64,000 nucleotides of DNA from Dictyostelium discoideum (taxonomy: Eukaryota): positions 3,072,001-3,136,000 of the forward strand of contig CM000152.2 of NCBI GenBank assembly GCA_000004695.1, given 5' to 3'. The translations under genes were made by a program, and so were the position numbers. A model generated the notes under the pieces. It saw nothing but the letters and a program-made list of their open reading frames with translations. It did not search any database and was not told the origin of the DNA. Below, piece after piece: positions 30,884 through 59,389 of this stretch; position 1 is the stretch's first letter, and each line of letters begins with the position of its first letter.

Positions 30884-30956
30884 CACCCATTGTGGGTCTC
30901 GATCCCACGACCTGCAGCTTAGAAGGCTGCCGCAATTCCAACTTTGCTAAACGGGC
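30884..30956 (-). tRNA. tRNA-Arg, anticodon UCU, 73 nt, no intron and no encoded CCA.
   Basis: The minus-strand cloverleaf is GCCCGTT-TA-GCAA-AGTTGGAA-TTGC-G-GCAGC-CTTCTAA-GCTGC-AGGTC-GTGGG-ATCGAGA-CCCAC-AATGGGT-G. The A box (TAGCAAAGTTGG) is good and the anticodon loop is canonical (U33, TCT, A37). Two features are atypical. The acceptor stem has two G·U pairs (1-72 and 5-68). The T-loop is ATCGAGA (A54, A60) rather than TTCGAAT. Confidence 0.7.
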
Positions 30957-31911: not shown

Positions 31912-33144
31912 TTATTGTTGAGCACAAGAAACACCTTGTGGATGACCACCATGTTGATCTTCATCATCGTCATCGTAAGCAGAGGATCTACTATGTGAAT
32001 GTTGTTTAGTATCGAAATCATGTAAAACGGCCTCTTCATCGATGCCATCGTGGGAAACTGGTTTTTGAACTGGTTTTGGTTTTGGAAGTATTTTCTCCAA
32101 GAGCTTAGCGTTTTCGGGTGTGATTTGACCAGAGGTTGGGAAAACGACATTGAATTTGATAAAGAGTCTACCCTTTTCAAAAGGTCTCTTGTAACCTGGC
32201 ATACCTTCGTTATAAATACATTTGATATCACCTTGTTTGATGATTTGAGTTGGTGGATTCTTTACGGTGATGACACGACCATCCAAATGGGTGATGTAAA
32301 AGGTGAAACCTGTCAAAGCCTCTAAAAGGGTCAACTCATGCTCCATGACGAGATCGTCGCCATCACGTTGGAATACTGGATGCTCCTTTTGAACGAGTAC
32401 AACGATGACGTCACCTGGTACGATATCAGGTGATTCGTAATCACCTTCCTCTGGGAAAACGATCTTTTGACCGTGTTTCATACCCTTGTCAATGTTTACT
32501 TCGAGTGTTTTCTTCTCTTGAATGGTTTTGTTACCTTTACATTTTGGACATCTATCTTTCTCACGGATAACATTGCCCTCACCTTTGCAAGATGGACATT
32601 GTGATTGTAACTTTTGGACCATACCTGGACCGATTTGTCTATGAATAACCTTGAAACCTTGACCATGACAATCGTCACATTTCTTTACACCATCCTTGCT
32701 TGTTGAACCTTTACCTGCGCAATCTGGACATTTGCTACTCTTTTGTAAGGCGAGTTTTTGAACTTTACCCTTGTATAAATCCTCGAGTGTAACTTTAAGA
32801 TTATGTTGGAGTGGTTCTCCTTTTCTTGGTCCACGTCTACCACCACGTCCTCCAAATCCTCCAAATCCACCACCACCAAAGAATTGTGAAAAGATATCAT
32901 CTGGTGAAAATCCTGCTCCACCTTCTTTCAAACCTTCTTCACCATATTTATCATAAAGTTCTCTCTTTTCAGTATCAGATAAAACTTCATATGCAACTGT
33001 AAGTTCTTTAAACTAAATTTTAAAAATAAAAAAAATTAGTAAAATAATAAATAAATATAAATATAATAATAAATATAATATTATTATTATATATATAATG
33101 TGTTGTGGGAATAAATTTGAATTTGAAATTTCAAATTCTAAACT

Positions 33145-46642: not shown

Positions 46643-47911
46643 ATGGGAAATGTAGAATCGCTTTCAAATTCAATTTCTGAGGAATATCATAGGGTAGATG
46701 CTACAAACAGAGGATATTTGGTATGTTAATGATTTATAATTCGCAATCCAATAAAAAAAAAAAAGTGGTGTATACAAAATCATTTTAATGTTGTAAATAA
46801 AAAAAAAACAAATACAAATATATATATTATTTAATAAATACCTTTAACACTTTCAAAATTTTACAAGAAATTTTCAACTTATCAAAAAATTGATATACCC
46901 CCACACACTCACACACTCACACACCACATACACACACTTTCCAAAAAATAAATTTCATTTTTAATCACTTATTTCCTAATCTCATATATTTTTACTTTTT
47001 GGAATACAAATTTACCAAACTACTTTTTTGTTTTCTTTGATAACTTAGTATGAAAGTTTAATTATAGAATCTACTGTCTATCTGGCATTCAAAAAAAAAA
47101 AAAAAAAAAAAAATAATAATAAATAATAAAAATAATAAAATTAAAACATTAAAAAAATTACATAATGACAACACTTTTATAAAATTCTATATTTAAAATA
47201 ATCTATTTTTAAGTTTTTTACATTTATTGACTTTTTTTTTTTTTTTTTCTATTATCATAATAATTCTTTTTTTTTTTTTTAATTTATTTGAAATTTTATT
47301 ATTAATAATTATTACCTTTTTTTTTATTATTATTATTATTAATTATAATGATTTATAAAAGTTATTGGATGAATTATTACAAATGCAACCACCTAGAGAG
47401 AGTACGATTGATATATGTCATCTTGGTACATTATTTGTAATTGATAAAAGAAGGACAGGTAGATTCTATCATAATGATATACTTGAATTTGCAAGGACCT
47501 ATGCATCACAGGCTTTATTAAATGGTAGGAAAGATGATTTTCAATCAAAATTTCAGGCTTATTGTACTTTAAAAATGTGGAACGAGATTTCAAAAGATAG
47601 AGATGAAATATTTGTTGAATGGTTTGTTGTTTTTTTTTTTTTTTGATTTTTTTTTTTTTTATTATTGATATTATTAATATTAACATTTTGTTTGAAAGGT
47701 TTACAAAACTATTCACAGAGAATCCAAACTATATACAAAAATTTGATCAACATAGTGAAACTTATTTAACAAGTGATGCTATAAATAAAATGTATCAGGT
47801 AATTATTATTATTATCATTATTATTAATTATTATTTTATTATAATTATCTTTTTGATTTTTATTTTTGTGATTATTTAAGGAGATAGGGGTTAGATTTTA
47901 TTGTGGGATGG

Positions 47912-52644: not shown

Positions 52645-55046
52645 TTAAAGTTCGTCATGGGTTGATTGTGGTGGTTGTTGGAAATCTTGTTGTTGATTTT
52701 CATCATCATCACCAAATGAAACTGATGGACCAGAATTTTCATTTTTAGTGGTTTCGAAATTAGTTTGAGCTAAACTATCACCATTAATCATCATTAATTT
52801 GTAAATGAAATCGGCAAAGTTTGTTGGATTATCAATGGAATAACCAGCGGTAAGAGCAGAAGTTTCATATAAAACATGAGCGCTAACTTTGGTAGTTTCA
52901 TCTTCTTCACCAAATTCATTCAATCTATTCAAGAGTTTTTTAATGAGTGGATGGGAAGGATTAATTTCCATGATTTTCTTTGAATTGAATTGTGGTTGAG
53001 CGTTTGCTTGATGAGCTTGAGCTTTCATGATACGTTCTTGATTGGCAGTGACACCCCAAGAATTTGAGACTAAAATACTTGGTGAATCAGCTAAAACCTT
53101 TGAAATGACGACTTTTTCCAATTTATCAGAGAGAGTCTTTTTGAGGTAAGAAAGGAGTGGTTTGAATTCTTCGGCGGTTTGTTTACGTTGATCCTCTTCC
53201 TCTTTGTCTTCATTGAATTTAACACCACTACGTGCAAGATTAGTGAATTTGTATTTATCGTCAAATTTATCCAATTGTGGTACTAAATACTCATCGATTG
53301 GATCGACTAAGAATAAAACTTCATAACCTTTTTTAATGGCTTGTTCAATGAGTGGTGAAGCTTCTACGGAATCCTTTGATTTACCAGTGATAAAGTAAAT
53401 TTGATCTTGACCCTCTTTCATACGTTCTACATAACCAGCAAAAGTGGTTAACTCTTCCTTACTTGATGGGAATAAGAGGTATTTAGTTAAACGTTTTTTA
53501 TTGGCTTGATCTTCGATGGCACCTAATTTCATTGAAGAACCGAATTTCTTAAAGAATTCATTGTATTTGGTTTTATCTTCATCTTCAGATAACTCTTTAA
53601 TCATTGAAATGAATTTACCAATGACCTTCTTTTTAATGGCATCTAAAATCTTATTTTGTTGTAACATTTCACGAGAAACATTCAATGGTAAATCATCGGA
53701 ATCAATAACACCAACTAAAAATCTTAACCAATTTGGAACCAATTCCTTAAGGTTATCAGTGATGAAAACACGACGTACAAATAATTTAAGACCACTACCG
53801 GCAGCTTCTAAATCAAACATATTTGATGGTGGATTCTCTGGAATGTAAAGAATTGAACGGAATTCAGTATCACCTTCAGTCTTAAAATGTGAATAAGTGA
53901 TTGGTGTATCTTGAGTTTTACTTAATGATCTAAAGAATTCAGTGTATTCTTCTTTGGTAACATCTTTTGCTGCTTTCATCCATAATGGTTTTGAATCATT
54001 TAATTCTTCCCATTTATAAACGGTTTTAGTTTTCTTTTCTTCAGTTTGTCCTTCTTCTTCGGTTGTAGTCTCTTCTTCACCTTCTTCTGTGGTGGTGGTA
54101 GTTTCTTCAACTTGATCATCGGTGATTGGTTTTGAATCTTCTTGTTCTTCTTTTGGAATTTCAACTTCTTCAGAAACGTATAAATAAATTGGGAAATTAA
54201 TGAATTGTGAGTACTTCTTTACGAGTTGTTTAATAACTTCTTGATCTAAGAATTCTTTAGAGTCATCTTTAATGTGAAGACTAATACGAGTACCTCTACC
54301 AAGTGTATTACCTTTTGGATCTTTGGCAATGGTGTATGATGATTGTGAATCTGATGTCCAAACGTATTGATCATCATCATTACTCTTTGAGGTTACAACA
54401 ACAGAATCGGCAACTAAAAATAATGAATAGAAACCAACACCAAATTGACCAATTAAATTGGATGATTCTGCTGAATCACTAACTTTCTTTATGAATTCTT
54501 TAGTTCCTGATTGGGCAATAGTACCTAAATTTCTAACTAATTCATCTTTAGTCATACCAACACCTCTATCAGTAATATGGAGAACATTATTAGCTTTATC
54601 AATTTTAATATGAATATCTAAGTTTGATTGTTCACCTTCACCTAATAAATCTGCATTTGTTAATGCTAAAAATCTAATTTTATCTAATGCCTTTTTTTAG
54701 AAAAAAAAAAAAAATAAATAAATAAAAATAATTAATAATCTTTTTTTTTTTTTTTTTTTTTTTTGTTTAAAAAAAAATTAAAACTTACATCTGATGCATT
54801 TGAAATTAATTCTCTTAAAAAGATTTCTTTTTTAGAATATAAGGAATTAATGATAATATTCATTAATTTATTGACTTCAGTTTGGAAAGTGAATTTTTCA
54901 CCCTTTTCTTCAATTAATTTTGCTTCAGCTTCTGTGTATCCATCACTTTCAAGGTTAACAGTGGCAACACTTGAACTTGGAGCGAATGCAACTAAAAGGA
55001 ATGCAAATAAACCAAGAATTAAAAATATTTTTGTAATACTTTTCAT
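52645..55046 (-). CDS. grp94: GRP94/endoplasmin (ER-resident Hsp90 paralogue), 767 aa, with a C-terminal HDEL. Exons: 55046..54789, 54690..52645.
   Basis: There is a signal peptide ([22 protein letters not shown]). The Hsp90 signature is split by the intron: ...[15 protein letters not shown], then GTAAGT..AG, then [24 protein letters not shown] ATPase motifs ([10 protein letters not shown]), charged linkers and the terminal HDEL are present. Confidence 0.92.
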
Positions 55047-55090
55047 CTTTTTTTTATAAGTATGTTTTTTAATTTAATGTATAATTGATG

Positions 55091-55128
<38 letters not shown>

Positions 55129-55256
55129 AAAAATGAAAAAAAAAAAAAAAAAAAAAATGAAAAAAAAACAGTGCATCGTCACCTTTTATTTTTAAAATAA
55201 AATGAAGCCCATCAGATGGAGTTCGATTTTTTCTAAAATTTTTTTTTTTTTATTTT

Positions 55257-55412
55257 CCCAAAACTTTAAAGGGAATAAAAAAATATTGTGTGACGATGCA
55301 AATTGATTAATGTAAAAATCAAAAGTTTTGATGCATTGTTTTAAATTTACAGGGTTTTTTTTTTTTTTTTTTTTTTTTTCTTTTTTCTTTCCTTTCTATT
55401 GATGTTTATATT
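55257..55412 (+). repeat. Copy A of a ~160-bp direct repeat. The core is CAAAACTTTAAAGGGAAT...ATATTGTGTGACGATGCAAATTGATTAAT...TCAAAAGTTTTGATG...TTTAAATTTACAGG, then a long T-run, then TTCTTTCTATTGATGTTTATATT.
   Basis: About 95% identical to copy B over the core. Each copy ends in a long T-run (T>=13). An 11-bp inverted match to GTGACGATGCA (TGCATCGTCAC) lies about 115 bp upstream at 55171..55181. Confidence 0.7.
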
Positions 55413-55484
55413 GGAAGGGTTCAATTTTTTTATTTTTTTTTTTTTATTTTATTTTTTTATTTTATTTTATTTTTGTTTTGTTTT

Positions 55485-55642
55485 CTCAAAACTTTAAAGG
55501 GAATTAAAAAATATTGTGTGACGATGCAAATTGATTAATATAAAATCAAAAGTTTTGATGTATTGTTTTAAATTTACAGGTTTTTTTTTTTTTCATTTTT
55601 TTTTTCATTTTTCTTTTTTTTCTTTCTATTGATGTTTATATT
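55485..55642 (+). repeat. Copy B of the same ~160-bp direct repeat, about 228 bp downstream of copy A.
   Basis: Aligned by eye to copy A, with a handful of substitutions (GGGAATT/GGGAATA, AATGT/AATAT, GATGC/GATGT). Both copies sit between the grp94 start (55046) and the vps55-like stop (55670). Confidence 0.7.
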
Positions 55643-55669
55643 ATTATTAATTGTTTTTTTTTTTTTTTT

Positions 55670-56180
55670 TTACCAATTATTGTCTTCATCATTATGTCTA
55701 TTAAAGAACCAAAGGAATGTAATAATTGTTGCATAAACTGTAACACCGCCTGCCATTGAAAATGCAAGTGCTTTTCCTGAAATCTGGAAATTTTTTTTAA
55801 AAAAAAAAATACGATTAGTTATTCATTCTTTTAACATATATATTTAAAATTATATTTAAATAAACCTACAATATCTGAATGGGCTAAAATCATTGGAATT
55901 GCAAATCCAGATGTAATAAATAGACCTGTTAAAAATAACCCAATATCTTCAAATGTTCTGTTTAGTTGTATTTTTTTAAAAAAAAAAAAAGAATGAGTAA
56001 TTAATTAATTGGAATTTTTAAAAAAAAAATAAAAAAATAAAAAAAGAACAAAATAATTAATAAATAATACAAACCCTTTTTCACTTGAAAAACTATCTCT
56101 ATTTCTACATAATATATTTGGGAACGGAGCAAGAAAATATGATGCAACTTTTTTTTTTTTTTTTTTTAAAACAAATTAGT

Positions 56181-56213
<33 letters not shown>

Positions 56214-56628
56214 TTTTTTTTTTTTTTTTTTTTTTGATTCTGATATAAATTTTGAAATATACATACCAACTATAATTGGATAACCAGAGTGAGAAACTAT
56301 ACATGCTAAAATATTAAATAATAAACCAACTGCAAATGCGCAAGAAAAACCTATAATTCTATATTATAATGTAAATATTTTATCTTTTTTTTTTTAATCT
56401 TTTTTTTATTTATTTTTATTTGTTTTTATTGTTTCATTTTCTTTCATATAAATATTGATCTTACGCTATAATTATAGTAATATTAAAATAAAATAATGAG
56501 ATGTTAATAAAGAGATTAAACTTTTTATTCTCGAAAAAAAAAAAAAAATAAAAAAAAAAAAAATAATAATAATAAAATAATCAAAAAATATGTTCAAATA
56601 ATTAAATACCTTTAATATCATGTCCCAT
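55670..56628 (-). CDS. Vps55/LEPROT (endospanin, OB-R gene-related) family four-TM protein, 125 aa, split into 5 exons: 56628..56610, 56350..56267, 56147..56075, 55957..55870, 55783..55670.
   Basis: The spliced product is MGHDIKGFSCAFAVGLLFNILACIVSHSGYPIIVVASYFLAPFPNILCRNRDSFSSEKGTFEDIGLFLTGLFITSGFAIPMILAHSDIISGKALAFSMAGGVTVYATIITFLWFFNRHNDEDNNW. Its C-terminal half aligns with human LEPROTL1 (...[31 protein letters not shown]). Donors are GTATTT, GTATGT, GTTTGT and GTAGGT. All phases close (19+84+73+88+114 = 378 nt). Confidence 0.7.
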
Positions 56629-57178
56629 TTTTTTGATGTTTATGTGTGATTAAATAAATATATAAATAAAAAAAAAAAAAAAAAATAAAAAAATAAAAAA
56701 AAAATTAATTTAAAAAAAAAAAAAAAAAAAAATAGAAATTAATTTAAAAAAAAATAAAAAAAAAAAATAATTGTTATTCACCCAAAAAATTAAAATTTTT
56801 TTTTTTGAAAACAACTCAAAAAAAAGGGTGAGGACGATTGTTTTATATATTTTTTTTTTTTTACAACAAATAATATTCGGATTAAAATGTTGATTATAAT
56901 TATCAAAAGATCCAATTTGGATGTATACATTTATTTTTTATTTTTTATATTTTTTTTTCTTTTCTGGAAAAACAAATTGATTTATTTAATCCTTAATTTT
57001 TCATTTTTTAATTAATTTTTAATCAATTTTTAATGAATTAATTTCTTTAAAATATTTATAAAAACTATTAAAAAATGAGAAATTGAGGAATTTAATAATT
57101 TCTTTTTTCCAGGATTATTATTTGTTTTTTTTTTTTTTAAAAATTTTTTAATTGTTTTATTTTTTTTTTATTTTTTTT

Positions 57179-59389
57179 TTATCTACCTCTAAAATCTAAA
57201 TTGAATTGAATAATTTTAGCATTTTTATCCCAAGAAGTAGTTACAATTGAAGAATCATAAGTTGTTAAAGAAGATATACGATTTGAATGATTATAAAGTG
57301 TTCTTTTACATTTTCCATTATCAACATCCCATAATTTAACGGTACCATCAAAGGAAGCAGAAACCACGAAATTATTGATAAATTTGGAAAGATTGACAAC
57401 TTCATCAGTGTGACCTTCTAAACAATGATAGGATTCACCATAGTTTGAATCCCAAACTTTTAGAGTTGAATCGGAGCTTGCAGTTAAGAATTTCTTTGGA
57501 GCAGTTGTACCATCGGTATCAACTTTACCATAGACCAAGATTGAATTTACACTACCACTATGAGATTGAAGAGTTTTAATACATTCACCATTATCCAATG
57601 ACCAAACTTTAACTCTACCATCACACGAGCCACTAATTAAAGTATCGGTAGAGTCAACTTCTAAACATTTAATCCAATCACTATGACCCGATAAAACATT
57701 TGTACTGGTACTGGTACGGATATCCCAAACTCTAATATTTGAATCATTTGAGCCAGAGATTACACGATATTGATCATTAACCACCAAACACATTACAGCT
57801 TGTTGATGACCAAACAATGTGATTGCAGGTTTATGACTACGACTATCCCAAACATTGATATTATTATCATTGGAGCCCGATACGAATATATTTGAATCTT
57901 GATTGACCAAACAAGTGATTGAACCTTTATGACCTCTAAATGATTTAATTTTTTGACCTTTTTGTAAATCCCAATATTTGATGGTTTTATCATATGAACC
58001 ACTTAACAATTTGGAGCCATCGGAACCCATAATCTCACAAGTTGTAACCCAACCACTATGATCCGATAAAGTGTTGATACATTTTGTAGTTGTTACATCC
58101 CAAACTTTTAATGTCGAATCGGCTGAACCCGTAATCAATAGATTATTTTCACGCTGAGAAATGGTTGAACATAAAACACCTTCAGAATGACCAGTGAACA
58201 ACTTCACCACATAATCACCTCTACTTTCAGAGATTTCTTTAATTGAGAAATTATTATTTTTGGTTGAATCTTTCTTTTTACTTGACTTACTCTCCTCCCA
58301 AGTTGATTTAATATTCATAATTTTATTCAATGAAACATGACCCTTTTCATCGAATAGATTTTGAAATATTTCATTGCCAACCTTGTTGTTTTTAGAATCT
58401 TTACCGCCACTACCAATCTTTGTAATCAATTGATAGGAATCCTCTTTTTCTCTCATTATATGTTTACGATGAACCAATTCATTATTATTATTATTATCTT
58501 GAAGTTTGGTTGAATTGATACCATTGTTAACTGTACTATCAAGATCTGATAATTCTCTAGCTCTTGACATATTTGAAACCACTTGTAACATTGTATCAGA
58601 ATCCAAATTAACTGAAGCACACATTCTATTTACAAATCTACGTACTAAATCGGGGGTTGAACCCAATGTAATCATTTTAAAAGTTTGATTTGATAATAAT
58701 GAAAATGCCATATCTTCTTCTTGTTTTATTAATTCCTTTTTAGTATCATCATTCTTTATTGACCATTCTACCATTTCTATTAACATTGAATTACCAATAC
58801 CATAAAGGTTTTTACATTTTGCTTCAATATGATCATAAAATAATTTTTCCCAAAACTTTTGGTTTTGCCAAAGGTCAATATTTGTTTGTAACTTTTCATG
58901 TAAATATTCATTTTGTCCTTTAAAAATTCTATGATAAATAAAAATTGATTCTAAAAATAATTGTGATGATATAAAATCTAATTGTGTATTACATTCTCTT
59001 AATGTAAATCTAATTATATCAACTAAACAATTAAATATTAAATCTGATAATTTAGTTTTACTATGATTTACACTACTACCAATACTACCACTTCTACTAC
59101 CACCACTTTTTGTATTTGAATTACTACTACCACCACCACCACCACTATGTAAACTCATTTGTGAAACATTTGAACCAACATAATTTTGTTTATGATGATT
59201 TAATAATAATTTACCAAAAATATGTCTACCATAATCAAATTGTAATACATCTAAAATTTGTTGAATATCATCAATTGGCACTTGATCACTAAAAATCTTA
59301 TCTAAAAATTTTTCAATTAAAATTACAAATGATTTATGTTGATCTTCATTAAATGAAAATTGTTGTAAACTTGATGAAATAATTGATAA

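What the first reader, a model, noticed from the sequence alone, without database searches (positions are those of the whole stretch)
55171..55645. Tandemly duplicated ~160-bp element, each copy ending in a long T-run, between grp94 and the vps55-like gene
Two roughly 95%-identical copies (55257..55412 and 55485..55642) of a GC-moderate module lie in an otherwise homopolymeric spacer. Each copy ends in a T-run of 13 or more followed by the conserved TTCTTTCTATTGATGTTTATATT. An 11-bp perfect inverted repeat of the core (TGCATCGTCAC / GTGACGATGCA) sits about 115 bp upstream of copy A. The layout suggests either a duplicated small ncRNA gene, with the T-run acting as a pol III-type terminator, or a duplicated cis-regulatory unit for the ER chaperone. 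The grp94 ATG is about 200 bp away on the other strand.
Basis: seen in the sequence. Interest (0 to 1): 0.55.

Follow-up and report, generated by a model that had tools for sequence, protein, structure and literature searches.

The report
Duplicated grp94 promoter element in Dictyostelium
The repeated block is a tandem duplication, found only in Dictyostelium discoideum, of spacer DNA that carries an 11-base promoter motif (GTGACGATGCA) conserved upstream of the ER chaperone gene grp94 across social amoebae; it is not a small RNA gene.

Summary
A head-to-tail repeat with a 228-bp period (55238-55672) has unique ~100-bp cores that differ by 5 substitutions and 1 indel. A third, inverted copy of the 11-mer TGCATCGTCAC lies 118 bp away.

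The window is Dictyostelium discoideum. The repeat fills the spacer between the 3' end of a vps55-like gene and the start of grp94, both on the minus strand.

The ncRNA reading fails:
- There is no Rfam hit.
- There is no Class I RNA match.
- Nothing matches the published DUSE expression.
- RNA folding is no better than shuffled sequence.
- The hairpin parts are not conserved in D. firmibasis, the one sister species checked base by base.
- T-runs of 13 or more occur about every 800 bp on each strand.

The cis-regulatory reading is supported by orthologous loci. GTGACGATGCA, exact or with at most 2 mismatches, sits 90-260 bp upstream of the grp94 ATG in ten of the eleven taxa whose promoters could be read. 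These include Heterostelium album (exact) and Cavenderia fasciculata (1 mismatch). All 18 hits with at most 1 mismatch in 165 kb of fetched DNA are at grp94 promoters.

The duplication is in all three D. discoideum assemblies and in none of four sister taxa. The conserved "tail" is the vps55 3' flank.

Whether the motif is an ER-stress element is an untested inference.

The parts
55238..55672 (.). Tandem duplication, period 228 bp, 1.9 copies. It fills most of the vps55-grp94 spacer.
   Evidence: TRF; alignment. Present in D. discoideum L001 and L013. Absent from D. cf. discoideum, D. citrinum, D. firmibasis and D. dimigraforme.
55172..55182 (-). Proximal site. It reads GTGACGATGCA in the grp94 sense, -136 to -126 from the ATG. 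This is the most widely conserved copy.
   Evidence: An exact or 1-mismatch site lies at -128 to -148 in all seven loci of the D. discoideum complex.
55290..55300 (-). Distal site in copy A. It reads TGCATCGTCAC in the grp94 sense, about -254.
   Evidence: Orthologous exact sites lie at -248 in D. firmibasis and -255 in D. cf. discoideum. The site is deleted in D. citrinum.
55518..55528 (-). Distal site in copy B, about -482. This is the extra site created by the duplication.
55256..55354 (.). Unique core of copy A.
55484..55581 (.). Unique core of copy B.
55392..55412 (-). Tail of copy A. It reads AATATAAACATCAATAGAAAG in the gene sense and is a duplicated copy of the vps55 3' flank.
   Evidence: The same block directly follows the vps55 stop codon in copy B and in sister species.
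55622..55642 (-). Tail of copy B. This is the original vps55 3' flank, 28 bp downstream of the stop codon. It is probably part of the 3' UTR or poly(A) region.
   Evidence: It is conserved as AATATAAA(C/A)ATCAATA in D. firmibasis and exactly in D. cf. discoideum.
55343..55352 (-). CTGTAAATTT block in copy A (the copy B equivalent is at 55570-55579). It is conserved in the close sister species. Function unknown.
55215..55228 (-). AATCGAACTCCATC block between the distal and proximal sites. It is conserved in D. firmibasis (AATCGAAATCCACC).
55072..55091 (-). TCATCAATTATACATTAAAT block, -46 to -27 from the ATG, downstream of a TATA-like TTTAAA and a long T-run. It is the probable transcription start or 5' UTR of grp94.
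   Evidence: It is nearly invariant in all loci of the D. discoideum complex. The role as start site is inferred from the usual Dictyostelium promoter layout.
55044..55046 (-). grp94 start codon.
   Evidence: ORF and splice reconstruction. The product is 767 aa, ends in HDEL, and differs at 12 of 767 positions (ungapped) from D. discoideum P0001.
55670..55672 (-). Stop codon (TAA) of the vps55-like gene.
   Evidence: (Pfam Vps55 gene called in L001).

Best explanation
The spacer holds two things: the 3' end of a vps55-like gene and the promoter of grp94, which encodes the ER Hsp90 (endoplasmin).

The promoter carries an ancient 11-bp element, GTGACGATGCA. It usually occurs as two copies 30-120 bp apart, about 90-260 bp upstream of the ATG, and upstream of a TATA-like box, a T-run and the start region. 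The element most likely binds a sequence-specific transcription factor that drives grp94 transcription. Its TGACG half-site suggests a bZIP-type protein.

In the D. discoideum lineage, after it split from D. cf. discoideum and D. citrinum, a 228-bp segment was duplicated head to tail. The segment ran from the vps55 3' flank through the distal site. Slippage or unequal exchange between the flanking A/T tracts is the probable cause. The result is a third site at about -480 and a second copy of the vps55 3' flank.

Shown: the duplication, its lineage distribution, and the conservation and specificity of the 11-mer.
Inferred: protein binding, the activator role, any dosage effect of the third site, and any link to ER stress.
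For: - Identity of the genes and organism.
- Duplication. The differences that distinguish copy A from copy B are shared between the window and L001, so it predates the split of those two strains.
- Absence from sister taxa: the spacer is about 625 bp in the window and 602 bp in L001, but 462, 347, 388 and 350 bp in D. cf. discoideum, D. citrinum, D. firmibasis and D. dimigraforme, each with a single module.
- Footprint: the 11-mer is exact in D. discoideum (3 sites in each of 3 assemblies), D. firmibasis (-248, -133), D. dimigraforme (-148), D. citrinum (-128), D. cf. discoideum (-255, plus a 1-mismatch site at -134) and Heterostelium album (-254, plus a 1-mismatch site at -173). C. fasciculata has a 1-mismatch site at -105. 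D. purpureum has two 2-mismatch sites at -136 and -103. T. lacteum has CCGTCAC at -91 and CGCGTCAC at -70.
- Shuffle tests on 300-bp upstream regions: p<=0.002 for the best match in 6 of 8 species.
- Specificity: all 18 hits with at most 1 mismatch in 165 kb of fetched dictyostelid DNA lie -105 to -482 from a grp94 ATG.
- The CGTCAC core occurs 7 times in the 64-kb window. Only the three promoter copies are non-coding.
- The 11-mer is absent from about 800 kb of D. discoideum and D. firmibasis sequence held as text in a paper supplement. Matches split across line ends would be missed.
Against: - No binding, reporter or expression data could be obtained.
- The motif could not be looked for at other ER chaperone promoters.
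- A. subglobosum has only CACGTCAC, with no 11-mer (p=0.96).
- Only 128 bp of the P. violaceum upstream region is held, and it shows no site.
- The distal site is evolutionarily labile: deleted in D. citrinum and degenerate in D. dimigraforme. The duplicated copy may therefore be neutral.
- The orientation of the proximal site flips between close species.
- The close species of the D. discoideum complex are alignable, so their sites are not independent observations.
Confidence: 0.8

Rival explanations
1. Each copy is a small non-coding RNA gene on the plus strand. It would be driven by a DUSE-like upstream element (TCCCAAAA at 55256) and terminated at the T-run by RNA polymerase III.
For: - Copy A has TCCCAAAA about 62 nt upstream of an AAG at 55323-55325, close to the published DUSE-to-start distance of about 60 nt.
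- A T-run follows.
- One copy A/copy B difference (C to T at 55563) would keep a G-U pair in a plus-strand hairpin.
Against: - The published DUSE expression [TA][CA]CCA[TC]AA does not match anywhere in the spacer.
- A occurs at DUSE position 6 in 2.7% of sites. Copy B has T where C is invariant.
- WCCCAAAA occurs 8 times in the window, against 16 expected by chance.
- No Rfam family matches at E<=10.
- The Class I model scores at most 4.6 bits in the module, and there is no CCTTACAGCAA motif.
- Fold z-scores are -0.9 to +1.3.
- Neither the CCC nor the hairpin arms are conserved in D. firmibasis (read by eye).
- There are 151 A or T runs of 13 or more in 64 kb.
- None of the 37 curated Class I loci on chromosome 3 lies near 3.2 Mb. 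Placing grp94 on that chromosome is inferred only from contig size in another assembly.
Confidence: 0.04
2. It is neutral duplicated spacer DNA. The duplication, including its copy of the 11-mer, has no function, and grp94 is served by the proximal site alone.
For: - The distal site is dispensable in evolution. It is deleted in D. citrinum and degenerate in D. dimigraforme.
- The whole 228-bp unit is retained at similar identity, with no sign that the motif is better kept than its flanks. There are 5 substitutions in 101 bp, about 0.5 expected within the motif.
- A/T tracts make slippage easy.
Against: - The distal site is exact in D. firmibasis, D. cf. discoideum and all D. discoideum copies.
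- Two-site arrangements recur in distant species: D. purpureum, H. album, T. lacteum and C. fasciculata.
- This rival agrees with the best explanation about the element itself. It differs only on whether the extra copy matters.
Confidence: 0.3
3. The module belongs to the vps55-like gene. It would be that gene's 3' UTR with polyadenylation and termination signals, duplicated along with it.
For: - The tail AATATAAACATCAATAG directly follows the vps55 stop codon and is conserved there in sister species.
- CTGTAAATTT lies 60-100 bp downstream of the stop codon in the close species.
Against: - D. purpureum, H. album, C. fasciculata and T. lacteum have no vps55 gene upstream of grp94, yet they keep the 11-mer or its core at the grp94 promoter.
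- The 11-mer therefore tracks grp94, not vps55.
- This reading is probably right for the tail and possibly for the CTGTAAATTT block, but not for the core motif.
Confidence: 0.1
4. It is a fragment of a mobile element (MITE or retrotransposon remnant). The inverted 11-mers would be terminal repeats.
For: The 11-mer occurs in inverted orientation 118 bp apart.
Against: - There are no other copies in the window.
- The position is orthologous in 11 taxa separated by deep divergence.
- Only 11 bp are shared between the arms.
- There are no target-site duplications and no coding remnants.
Confidence: 0.01

Closest known systems
ER-stress response elements of ER chaperone promoters: mammalian ERSE (CCAAT-N9-CCACG) and UPRE (TGACGTGG/A), yeast UPRE (CAGCGTG), plant pUPRE (CCACGTCA). 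They are bound by the bZIP factors ATF6, XBP1, Hac1 and bZIP60/28. These consensus sequences are given from my own knowledge.
   Same: - A short GC-rich element, present in one to three copies within a few hundred bp upstream of an ER chaperone gene, and deeply conserved.
- It contains the bZIP half-site TGACG.
- The A. subglobosum variant reads GTGACGTG, which is the UPRE core.
   Different: - The D. discoideum spacer has no CCACG, no CCAAT-N9-CCACG, no TGACGTG and not even an ACGT core.
- The conserved sequence is GTGACGATGCA.
- No Hac1/XBP1 or ATF6 orthologue has been identified in Dictyostelium (PMC6025073, PMC13343406).
- Neither stress inducibility through this element nor its presence at other UPR target genes has been tested.
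Dictyostelium Class I RNAs and other ncRNA genes driven by DUSE (Kjellin et al. 2021, PMC7919456).
   Same: - Same organism.
- A small GC-moderate island in AT-rich spacer, followed by a T-run.
- A CCCA-containing octamer about 60 nt upstream of an AAG in copy A.
   Different: - The covariance model and the 11-nt motif test both fail.
- There is no valid DUSE.
- There is no terminal stem.
- Nothing beyond the 11-mer is conserved outside the D. discoideum complex (read by eye).
Lineage-specific tandem duplication of promoter segments, which changes the number of binding sites for a factor.
   Same: - Head-to-tail repeat of 228 bp bounded by low-complexity A/T tracts.
- It adds one transcription-factor site.
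- It is present in all three sampled assemblies of one species and absent from its sisters.
   Different: No expression consequence has been shown. The duplicated segment also carries the neighbouring gene's 3' flank.

Membership tests
Dictyostelium Class I RNA | Sequence and structure profile: 5' GTTGAC, the 11-nt CCTTACAGCAA motif, and 3' GTCAACTG forming a terminal stem. | tested here: not met
   Model R2 was built from 27 curated DdR sequences. With filters off over 54000-57000, the best hits inside the module are 4.6 and 4.4 bits and are partial A/T-rich matches. CCTTACAGCAA has no match in the spacer at up to 2 mismatches.
Dictyostelium Class I RNA and other DUSE-driven ncRNA genes | DUSE [TA][CA]CCA[TC]AA about 60 nt upstream of the start, or of a TGTG box AAATGTG. 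| tested here: not met
   The expression comes from the authors' MEME output. The window has 41 matches, none between 55047 and 55669. Copy A has TCCCAAAA (A at position 6 occurs in 2.7% of sites). Copy B has TCTCAAAA, which breaks an invariant C. There is no AAATGTG at the right distance.
Any curated RNA family (Rfam 15) or tRNA | A covariance-model match. | tested here: not met
   At gathering threshold the only hit in the window is tRNA-Arg at 30884-30956. At E<=10 over 55000-55800 there are only two chance miRNA-model hits, at 20 and 16.5 bits against gathering scores of 70 and 60.
Structured ncRNA in general | Folding energy below shuffled controls, and a structure conserved in relatives. 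| tested here: not met
   z-scores are -0.93 to +1.30 for both copies on both strands. The hairpin arms are absent from the D. firmibasis orthologue (read by eye).
Structured ncRNA in general | A discrete transcript. | not testable with these tools
   No RNA-seq data were accessible.
Conserved cis-regulatory transcription-factor site (phylogenetic footprint) | The same short sequence is retained at the orthologous promoter in species whose flanking non-coding DNA no longer aligns. | tested here: met
   The 11-mer is exact in H. album, has 1 mismatch in C. fasciculata, and appears as two 2-mismatch sites in D. purpureum. All lie within 260 bp of the grp94 ATG.
Conserved cis-regulatory transcription-factor site (phylogenetic footprint) | It occurs more often than composition predicts and is specific to that promoter. 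| tested here: met
   (window). (shuffles: p<=0.002 in 6 of 8 species). (18 of 18 hits in 165 kb lie at grp94 promoters).
Conserved cis-regulatory transcription-factor site (phylogenetic footprint) | It binds a factor and affects transcription. | not testable with these tools
   This needs EMSA or DNA pull-down and reporter mutagenesis.
UPR / ER-stress response element (ERSE, UPRE) | A match to a known consensus: CCAAT-N9-CCACG, TGACGTG or CAGCGTG. | tested here: not met
   None of these, and no ACGT core, occurs in 55047-55672. Only the TGACG half-site is shared. A. subglobosum has GTGACGTG.
UPR / ER-stress response element (ERSE, UPRE) | It is shared by promoters of several ER-stress-induced genes (BiP/grp78, PDI, calreticulin and others). 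| not tested
The D. firmibasis calreticulin promoter in the only held text lies in an assembly gap.
UPR / ER-stress response element (ERSE, UPRE) | It confers induction by tunicamycin or DTT. | not testable with these tools
   This is an experimental test. The library holds no promoter study of Dd-grp94.
Lineage-specific tandem duplication | Head-to-tail copies, with copy-specific differences shared between strains, and a single copy in outgroups. | tested here: met

The most novel reading that the evidence does not exclude
GTGACGATGCA is the ER-stress (UPR) response element of dictyostelids. [quoted passage not shown] Its sequence differs from the ERSE and UPRE elements of animals, fungi and plants. 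If so, the element gives a direct handle, by DNA-affinity capture or one-hybrid screening against the 19 Dictyostelium bZIPs, on a factor that homology searches have not found.
Probability: 0.3. Interest if true: 0.6.

Novelty: new member of a known kind. Interest (0 to 1): 0.36.

Why it matters
The transcriptional arm of the Dictyostelium unfolded protein response is unresolved. IreA is required, yet no Hac1/XBP1 or ATF6 orthologue and no response element have been identified (PMC6025073, 2018; PMC13343406, 2026).

An 11-bp element that has stayed put at the grp94 promoter across Dictyostelia is a concrete candidate binding site. It can be mutated in reporters, scanned genome-wide, and used as bait to find the factor.

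The tandem duplication is ordinary on its own. It does offer a natural series across close species: one site (D. citrinum), two sites (D. firmibasis, D. cf. discoideum) and three sites (D. discoideum). That series could be used to ask whether site number tunes chaperone expression.

If the motif turns out to be specific to grp94 and unrelated to stress, this is simply a well-conserved promoter element of local interest.

Tried and rejected
1. Rfam searches, at gathering threshold on the whole window and at E<=10 on the region, and ARAGORN. Nothing relevant.

2. Class I RNA membership. R2 found nothing.

3. DUSE. The authors' regular expression was recovered from the paper's supplement. It has no match in the spacer.

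4. RNA folding of both copies, both strands and sub-segments. No signal.

5. Literature search for the motif string. All hits are unrelated primers or synthetic sequences. Searches for Dictyostelium bZIP/TGACG, IreA and Dd-GRP94 found no promoter work. The primary ER-stress RNA-seq paper (PMC6002696) is not held.

6. Attempts to test the motif at other ER chaperone promoters.
   - All 12 locus look-ups went to grp94 orthologues.
   - The supplement of PMC7919456 holds about 400 kb each of D. discoideum and D. firmibasis sequence and parts of both proteomes. Calreticulin was located in D. firmibasis, but its promoter is an N gap.
   - The PDI1 and BiP protein sequences were found, but their loci could no longer be fetched.

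7. A slow pure-Python shuffle test timed out. It was redone with numpy.

8. B-box-like strings (GAGTTCGATT at 55219, GGGTTCAATTT at 55417) were considered as pol III elements. They were rejected as weak partial matches with no tRNA-like gene nearby.

9. Matches to the DUSE expression elsewhere in the window, at 33103 and 47901, were inspected. No ncRNA-like sequence lies downstream.

Full report
**Context.** The window is 22.9% G+C and full of homopolymer runs. The long minus-strand ORF at 52645-54555, joined to a first exon at 54789-55046, gives a 767-aa Hsp90-family protein that ends in HDEL. Its closest relatives are the D. discoideum endoplasmin homologue grp94 and its dictyostelid orthologues. 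Upstream on the same strand is a Vps55-family gene whose stop codon is at 55670-55672. The finding therefore lies in a spacer of about 625 bp. That spacer must hold both the 3' end of vps55 and the promoter of grp94.

**Observation.**
- Tandem Repeats Finder reports one array at 55238-55672: period 228, 1.9 copies, 87% matches.
- The unique cores (55256-55354 and 55484-55581) differ by 5 substitutions and one indel.
- The T-rich runs after the cores differ in length. The 21-mer CTTTCTATTGATGTTTATATT after each run is identical.
- TGCATCGTCAC occurs three times in 64 kb, all in this spacer, against 0.13 expected.
The window has 151 A or T runs of 13 or more, about one every 420 bp.

**Test of the ncRNA reading.**
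- Rfam gives nothing at gathering threshold, and only two chance miRNA-model hits at E<=10.
- ARAGORN finds only a distant tRNA-Arg.
- Dictyostelium has its own abundant small RNAs, so I took the definition of Class I RNAs and of their upstream element DUSE from Kjellin et al. 2021 (PMC7919456).
- A covariance model built from 27 curated D. discoideum Class I RNAs finds nothing in the module. The best scores are 4.6 and 4.4 bits, both partial A/T-rich matches.
- The 11-nt Class I motif is absent.
- The authors' DUSE expression [TA][CA]CCA[TC]AA has 41 matches in the window and none in the spacer.
- Copy A has TCCCAAAA. The A at position 6 is seen in 2.7% of DUSE sites, and this octamer is no commoner in the window than chance predicts. 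Copy B has TCTCAAAA, which breaks an invariant C.
- Minimum free energies of both copies on both strands lie within one standard deviation or so of shuffled controls (z from -0.93 to +1.30).
- In D. firmibasis, neither the CCC nor the hairpin arms are kept (read by eye).
- I rate this reading at about 4%. Only transcript data could revive it.

**Comparative evidence.** I fetched the grp94 locus from eleven further assemblies (plus one transcript contig that carries no upstream sequence):
- D. discoideum: two more assemblies (L001, L013)
- D. cf. discoideum (L012)
- D. citrinum (L011)
- D. firmibasis (L003)
- D. dimigraforme (L002)
- D. purpureum (L004)
- P. violaceum (L005; only 128 bp of upstream sequence)
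- T. lacteum (L006)
- C. fasciculata (L008)
- H. album (L009)
- A. subglobosum (L010)

The order vps55 then grp94 is kept within the D. discoideum complex and lost elsewhere. The spacer is 602 bp in D. discoideum L001. It is 462, 347, 388 and 350 bp in D. cf. discoideum, D. citrinum, D. firmibasis and D. dimigraforme, and each of these has a single module.

The differences that distinguish copy A from copy B (an extra T; GGGAAAAT against GAGAAAAC) are shared by the window and L001. The duplication therefore arose once, in the D. discoideum lineage, before those two strains split and after the split from D. cf. discoideum and D. citrinum.

**What is conserved.** Read in the grp94 sense, the islands shared within the complex are:
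- AATATAAA(C/A)ATCAATA directly after the vps55 stop codon.
- CTGTAAATTT.
- The distal TGCATCGTCAC.
- TTTTGAGAAAA.
- AATCGAA(C/A)TCCA.
- The proximal GTGACGATGCA.
- TCATCAATTGTACATTAAAT at -46 to -27, after a TATA-like box and a long T-run. This is probably the transcription start region.

These islands are seen.

Outside the complex the non-coding DNA no longer aligns, yet the 11-mer persists:

| Species | Site(s), relative to the grp94 ATG |
|---|---|
| H. album | GTGACGATGCA at -254 (exact); GTGACGAGGCA at -173 |
| C. fasciculata | AGCATCGTCAC at -105, abutting GATGCGTCA |
| D. purpureum | TGTATCGTTAC at -136; ATGACGATGCG at -103 |
| T. lacteum | CCGTCAC at -91; CGCGTCAC at -70 |
| A. subglobosum | only CACGTCAC at -146 |

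Shuffling each 300-bp upstream region gives p<=0.002 for the best match in six of eight species. The CGTCAC core occurs seven times in the window, and the four outside this promoter are in coding sequence.

This is a classical phylogenetic footprint. It follows grp94, not vps55.

**Evolutionary detail.**
- The proximal site is the constant one.
- The distal site is deleted in D. citrinum and degenerate in D. dimigraforme.
- The proximal site is flipped in D. cf. discoideum and D. dimigraforme. D. dimigraforme reads ATGATCATGCATCGTCAC there. This hints at an ancestral palindrome, GTGACGATGCATCGTCAC, of which different halves survive.
- The part that D. discoideum duplicated is therefore the more labile half of the promoter. 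The extra site may well be neutral.

**Mechanism.**
- Shown: the segment is duplicated; it carries one of two copies of a deeply conserved grp94 promoter element; the rest of the repeat is the vps55 3' flank plus low-complexity spacer.
- Inferred: the element binds a sequence-specific activator. Its TGACG half-site is typical of bZIP proteins.
- The known ER-stress elements are absent. There is no CCACG, no CCAAT-N9-CCACG, no TGACGTG, no CAGCGTG and no ACGT core in the spacer. It is therefore not a member of those element families, although the A. subglobosum variant GTGACGTG matches the UPRE core.
- The ER-stress transcription factor of Dictyostelium is still unknown (PMC6025073; PMC13343406). 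I found no paper that mentions this motif in Dictyostelium.
- I could not test whether the motif is shared by other ER-stress genes. The look-ups were exhausted, and the one promoter I could reach as text, D. firmibasis calreticulin, lies in an assembly gap.

**Verdict.**
- The ncRNA interpretation is rejected.
- The cis-regulatory interpretation is supported for an 11-bp core.
- The duplication itself is an ordinary lineage-specific event.
- The finding is of modest interest as it stands. It would be of clear interest to the field if the motif proves to be the dictyostelid ER-stress element.

Noticed in passing
L002:3846-3863; L012:1867-1877: The proximal grp94 site is in the opposite orientation in D. 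dimigraforme and D. cf. discoideum. D. dimigraforme reads ATGATCATGCATCGTCAC, which looks like a decayed palindrome of two 11-mers overlapping at TGCA (GTGACGATGCATCGTCAC). The ancestral site may have been palindromic.
   Followed up: partly
L011:1740-1770: D. citrinum has lost the distal site through a small deletion, leaving ...TTATATCACAATG.... It keeps only the proximal GTGACGATGCA, so it is a natural one-site promoter.
   Followed up: partly
window 55072-55091 (minus strand): TCATCAATT(A/G)TACATTAAAT, 27-46 bp upstream of the grp94 ATG, is almost invariant across all seven loci of the D. discoideum complex. It follows a TATA-like box and a T-run of about 40 nt. It is probably the transcription start or 5' UTR.
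   Followed up: partly
window 55209-55219: A perfect palindrome, CCATCAGATGG, lies between the distal and proximal sites. It is broken in the other D. discoideum strain (L001 reads CCATCTGACGG), so it is probably not functional.
   Followed up: partly
L012:1570-1640: D. cf. discoideum has an (AAATAAAG)n microsatellite expansion in the vps55 3' flank, at the position where D. discoideum has a plain A/T run.
   Followed up: no
window 30884-30956 (minus strand): tRNA-Arg (anticodon TCT). It is the only RNA gene detected in the window by Rfam and ARAGORN.
   Followed up: no
window 33103-33110 (-), 47901-47908 (-), 57327-57334 (+): Three octamers match the DUSE expression with all three Cs (TCCCACAA, TCCCACAA, TCCCATAA). 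A glance at the first two shows no recognisable ncRNA about 60 nt downstream, and Rfam finds nothing there.
   Followed up: partly
window 31912-32931 (minus strand): A type I DnaJ chaperone gene (DnaJ_C plus the CXXCXGXG zinc-finger domain). The two CGTCAC hexamers inside it are in coding sequence and unrelated to the promoter motif.
   Followed up: partly
D. firmibasis JH723757.1:24957-28660 (old assembly GCA_000277485.1; supplement of PMC7919456): The geneid model JH723757.1_8 fuses a gene that looks like COP9 signalosome subunit 1 (my reading of the protein sequence; no domain search was run) to calreticulin across a 1-kb 'intron'. That 'intron' is really the intergenic region and contains an N gap. 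The calreticulin start and promoter are missing from that assembly.
   Followed up: partly
window 55047-55700 compared with L013:346-1000: The window and another D. discoideum assembly that encodes the identical AX4 grp94 protein place the three sites 6 bp apart relative to the ATG. This is most likely a difference in homopolymer lengths in this spacer, either a real polymorphism or an assembly difference.
   Followed up: no
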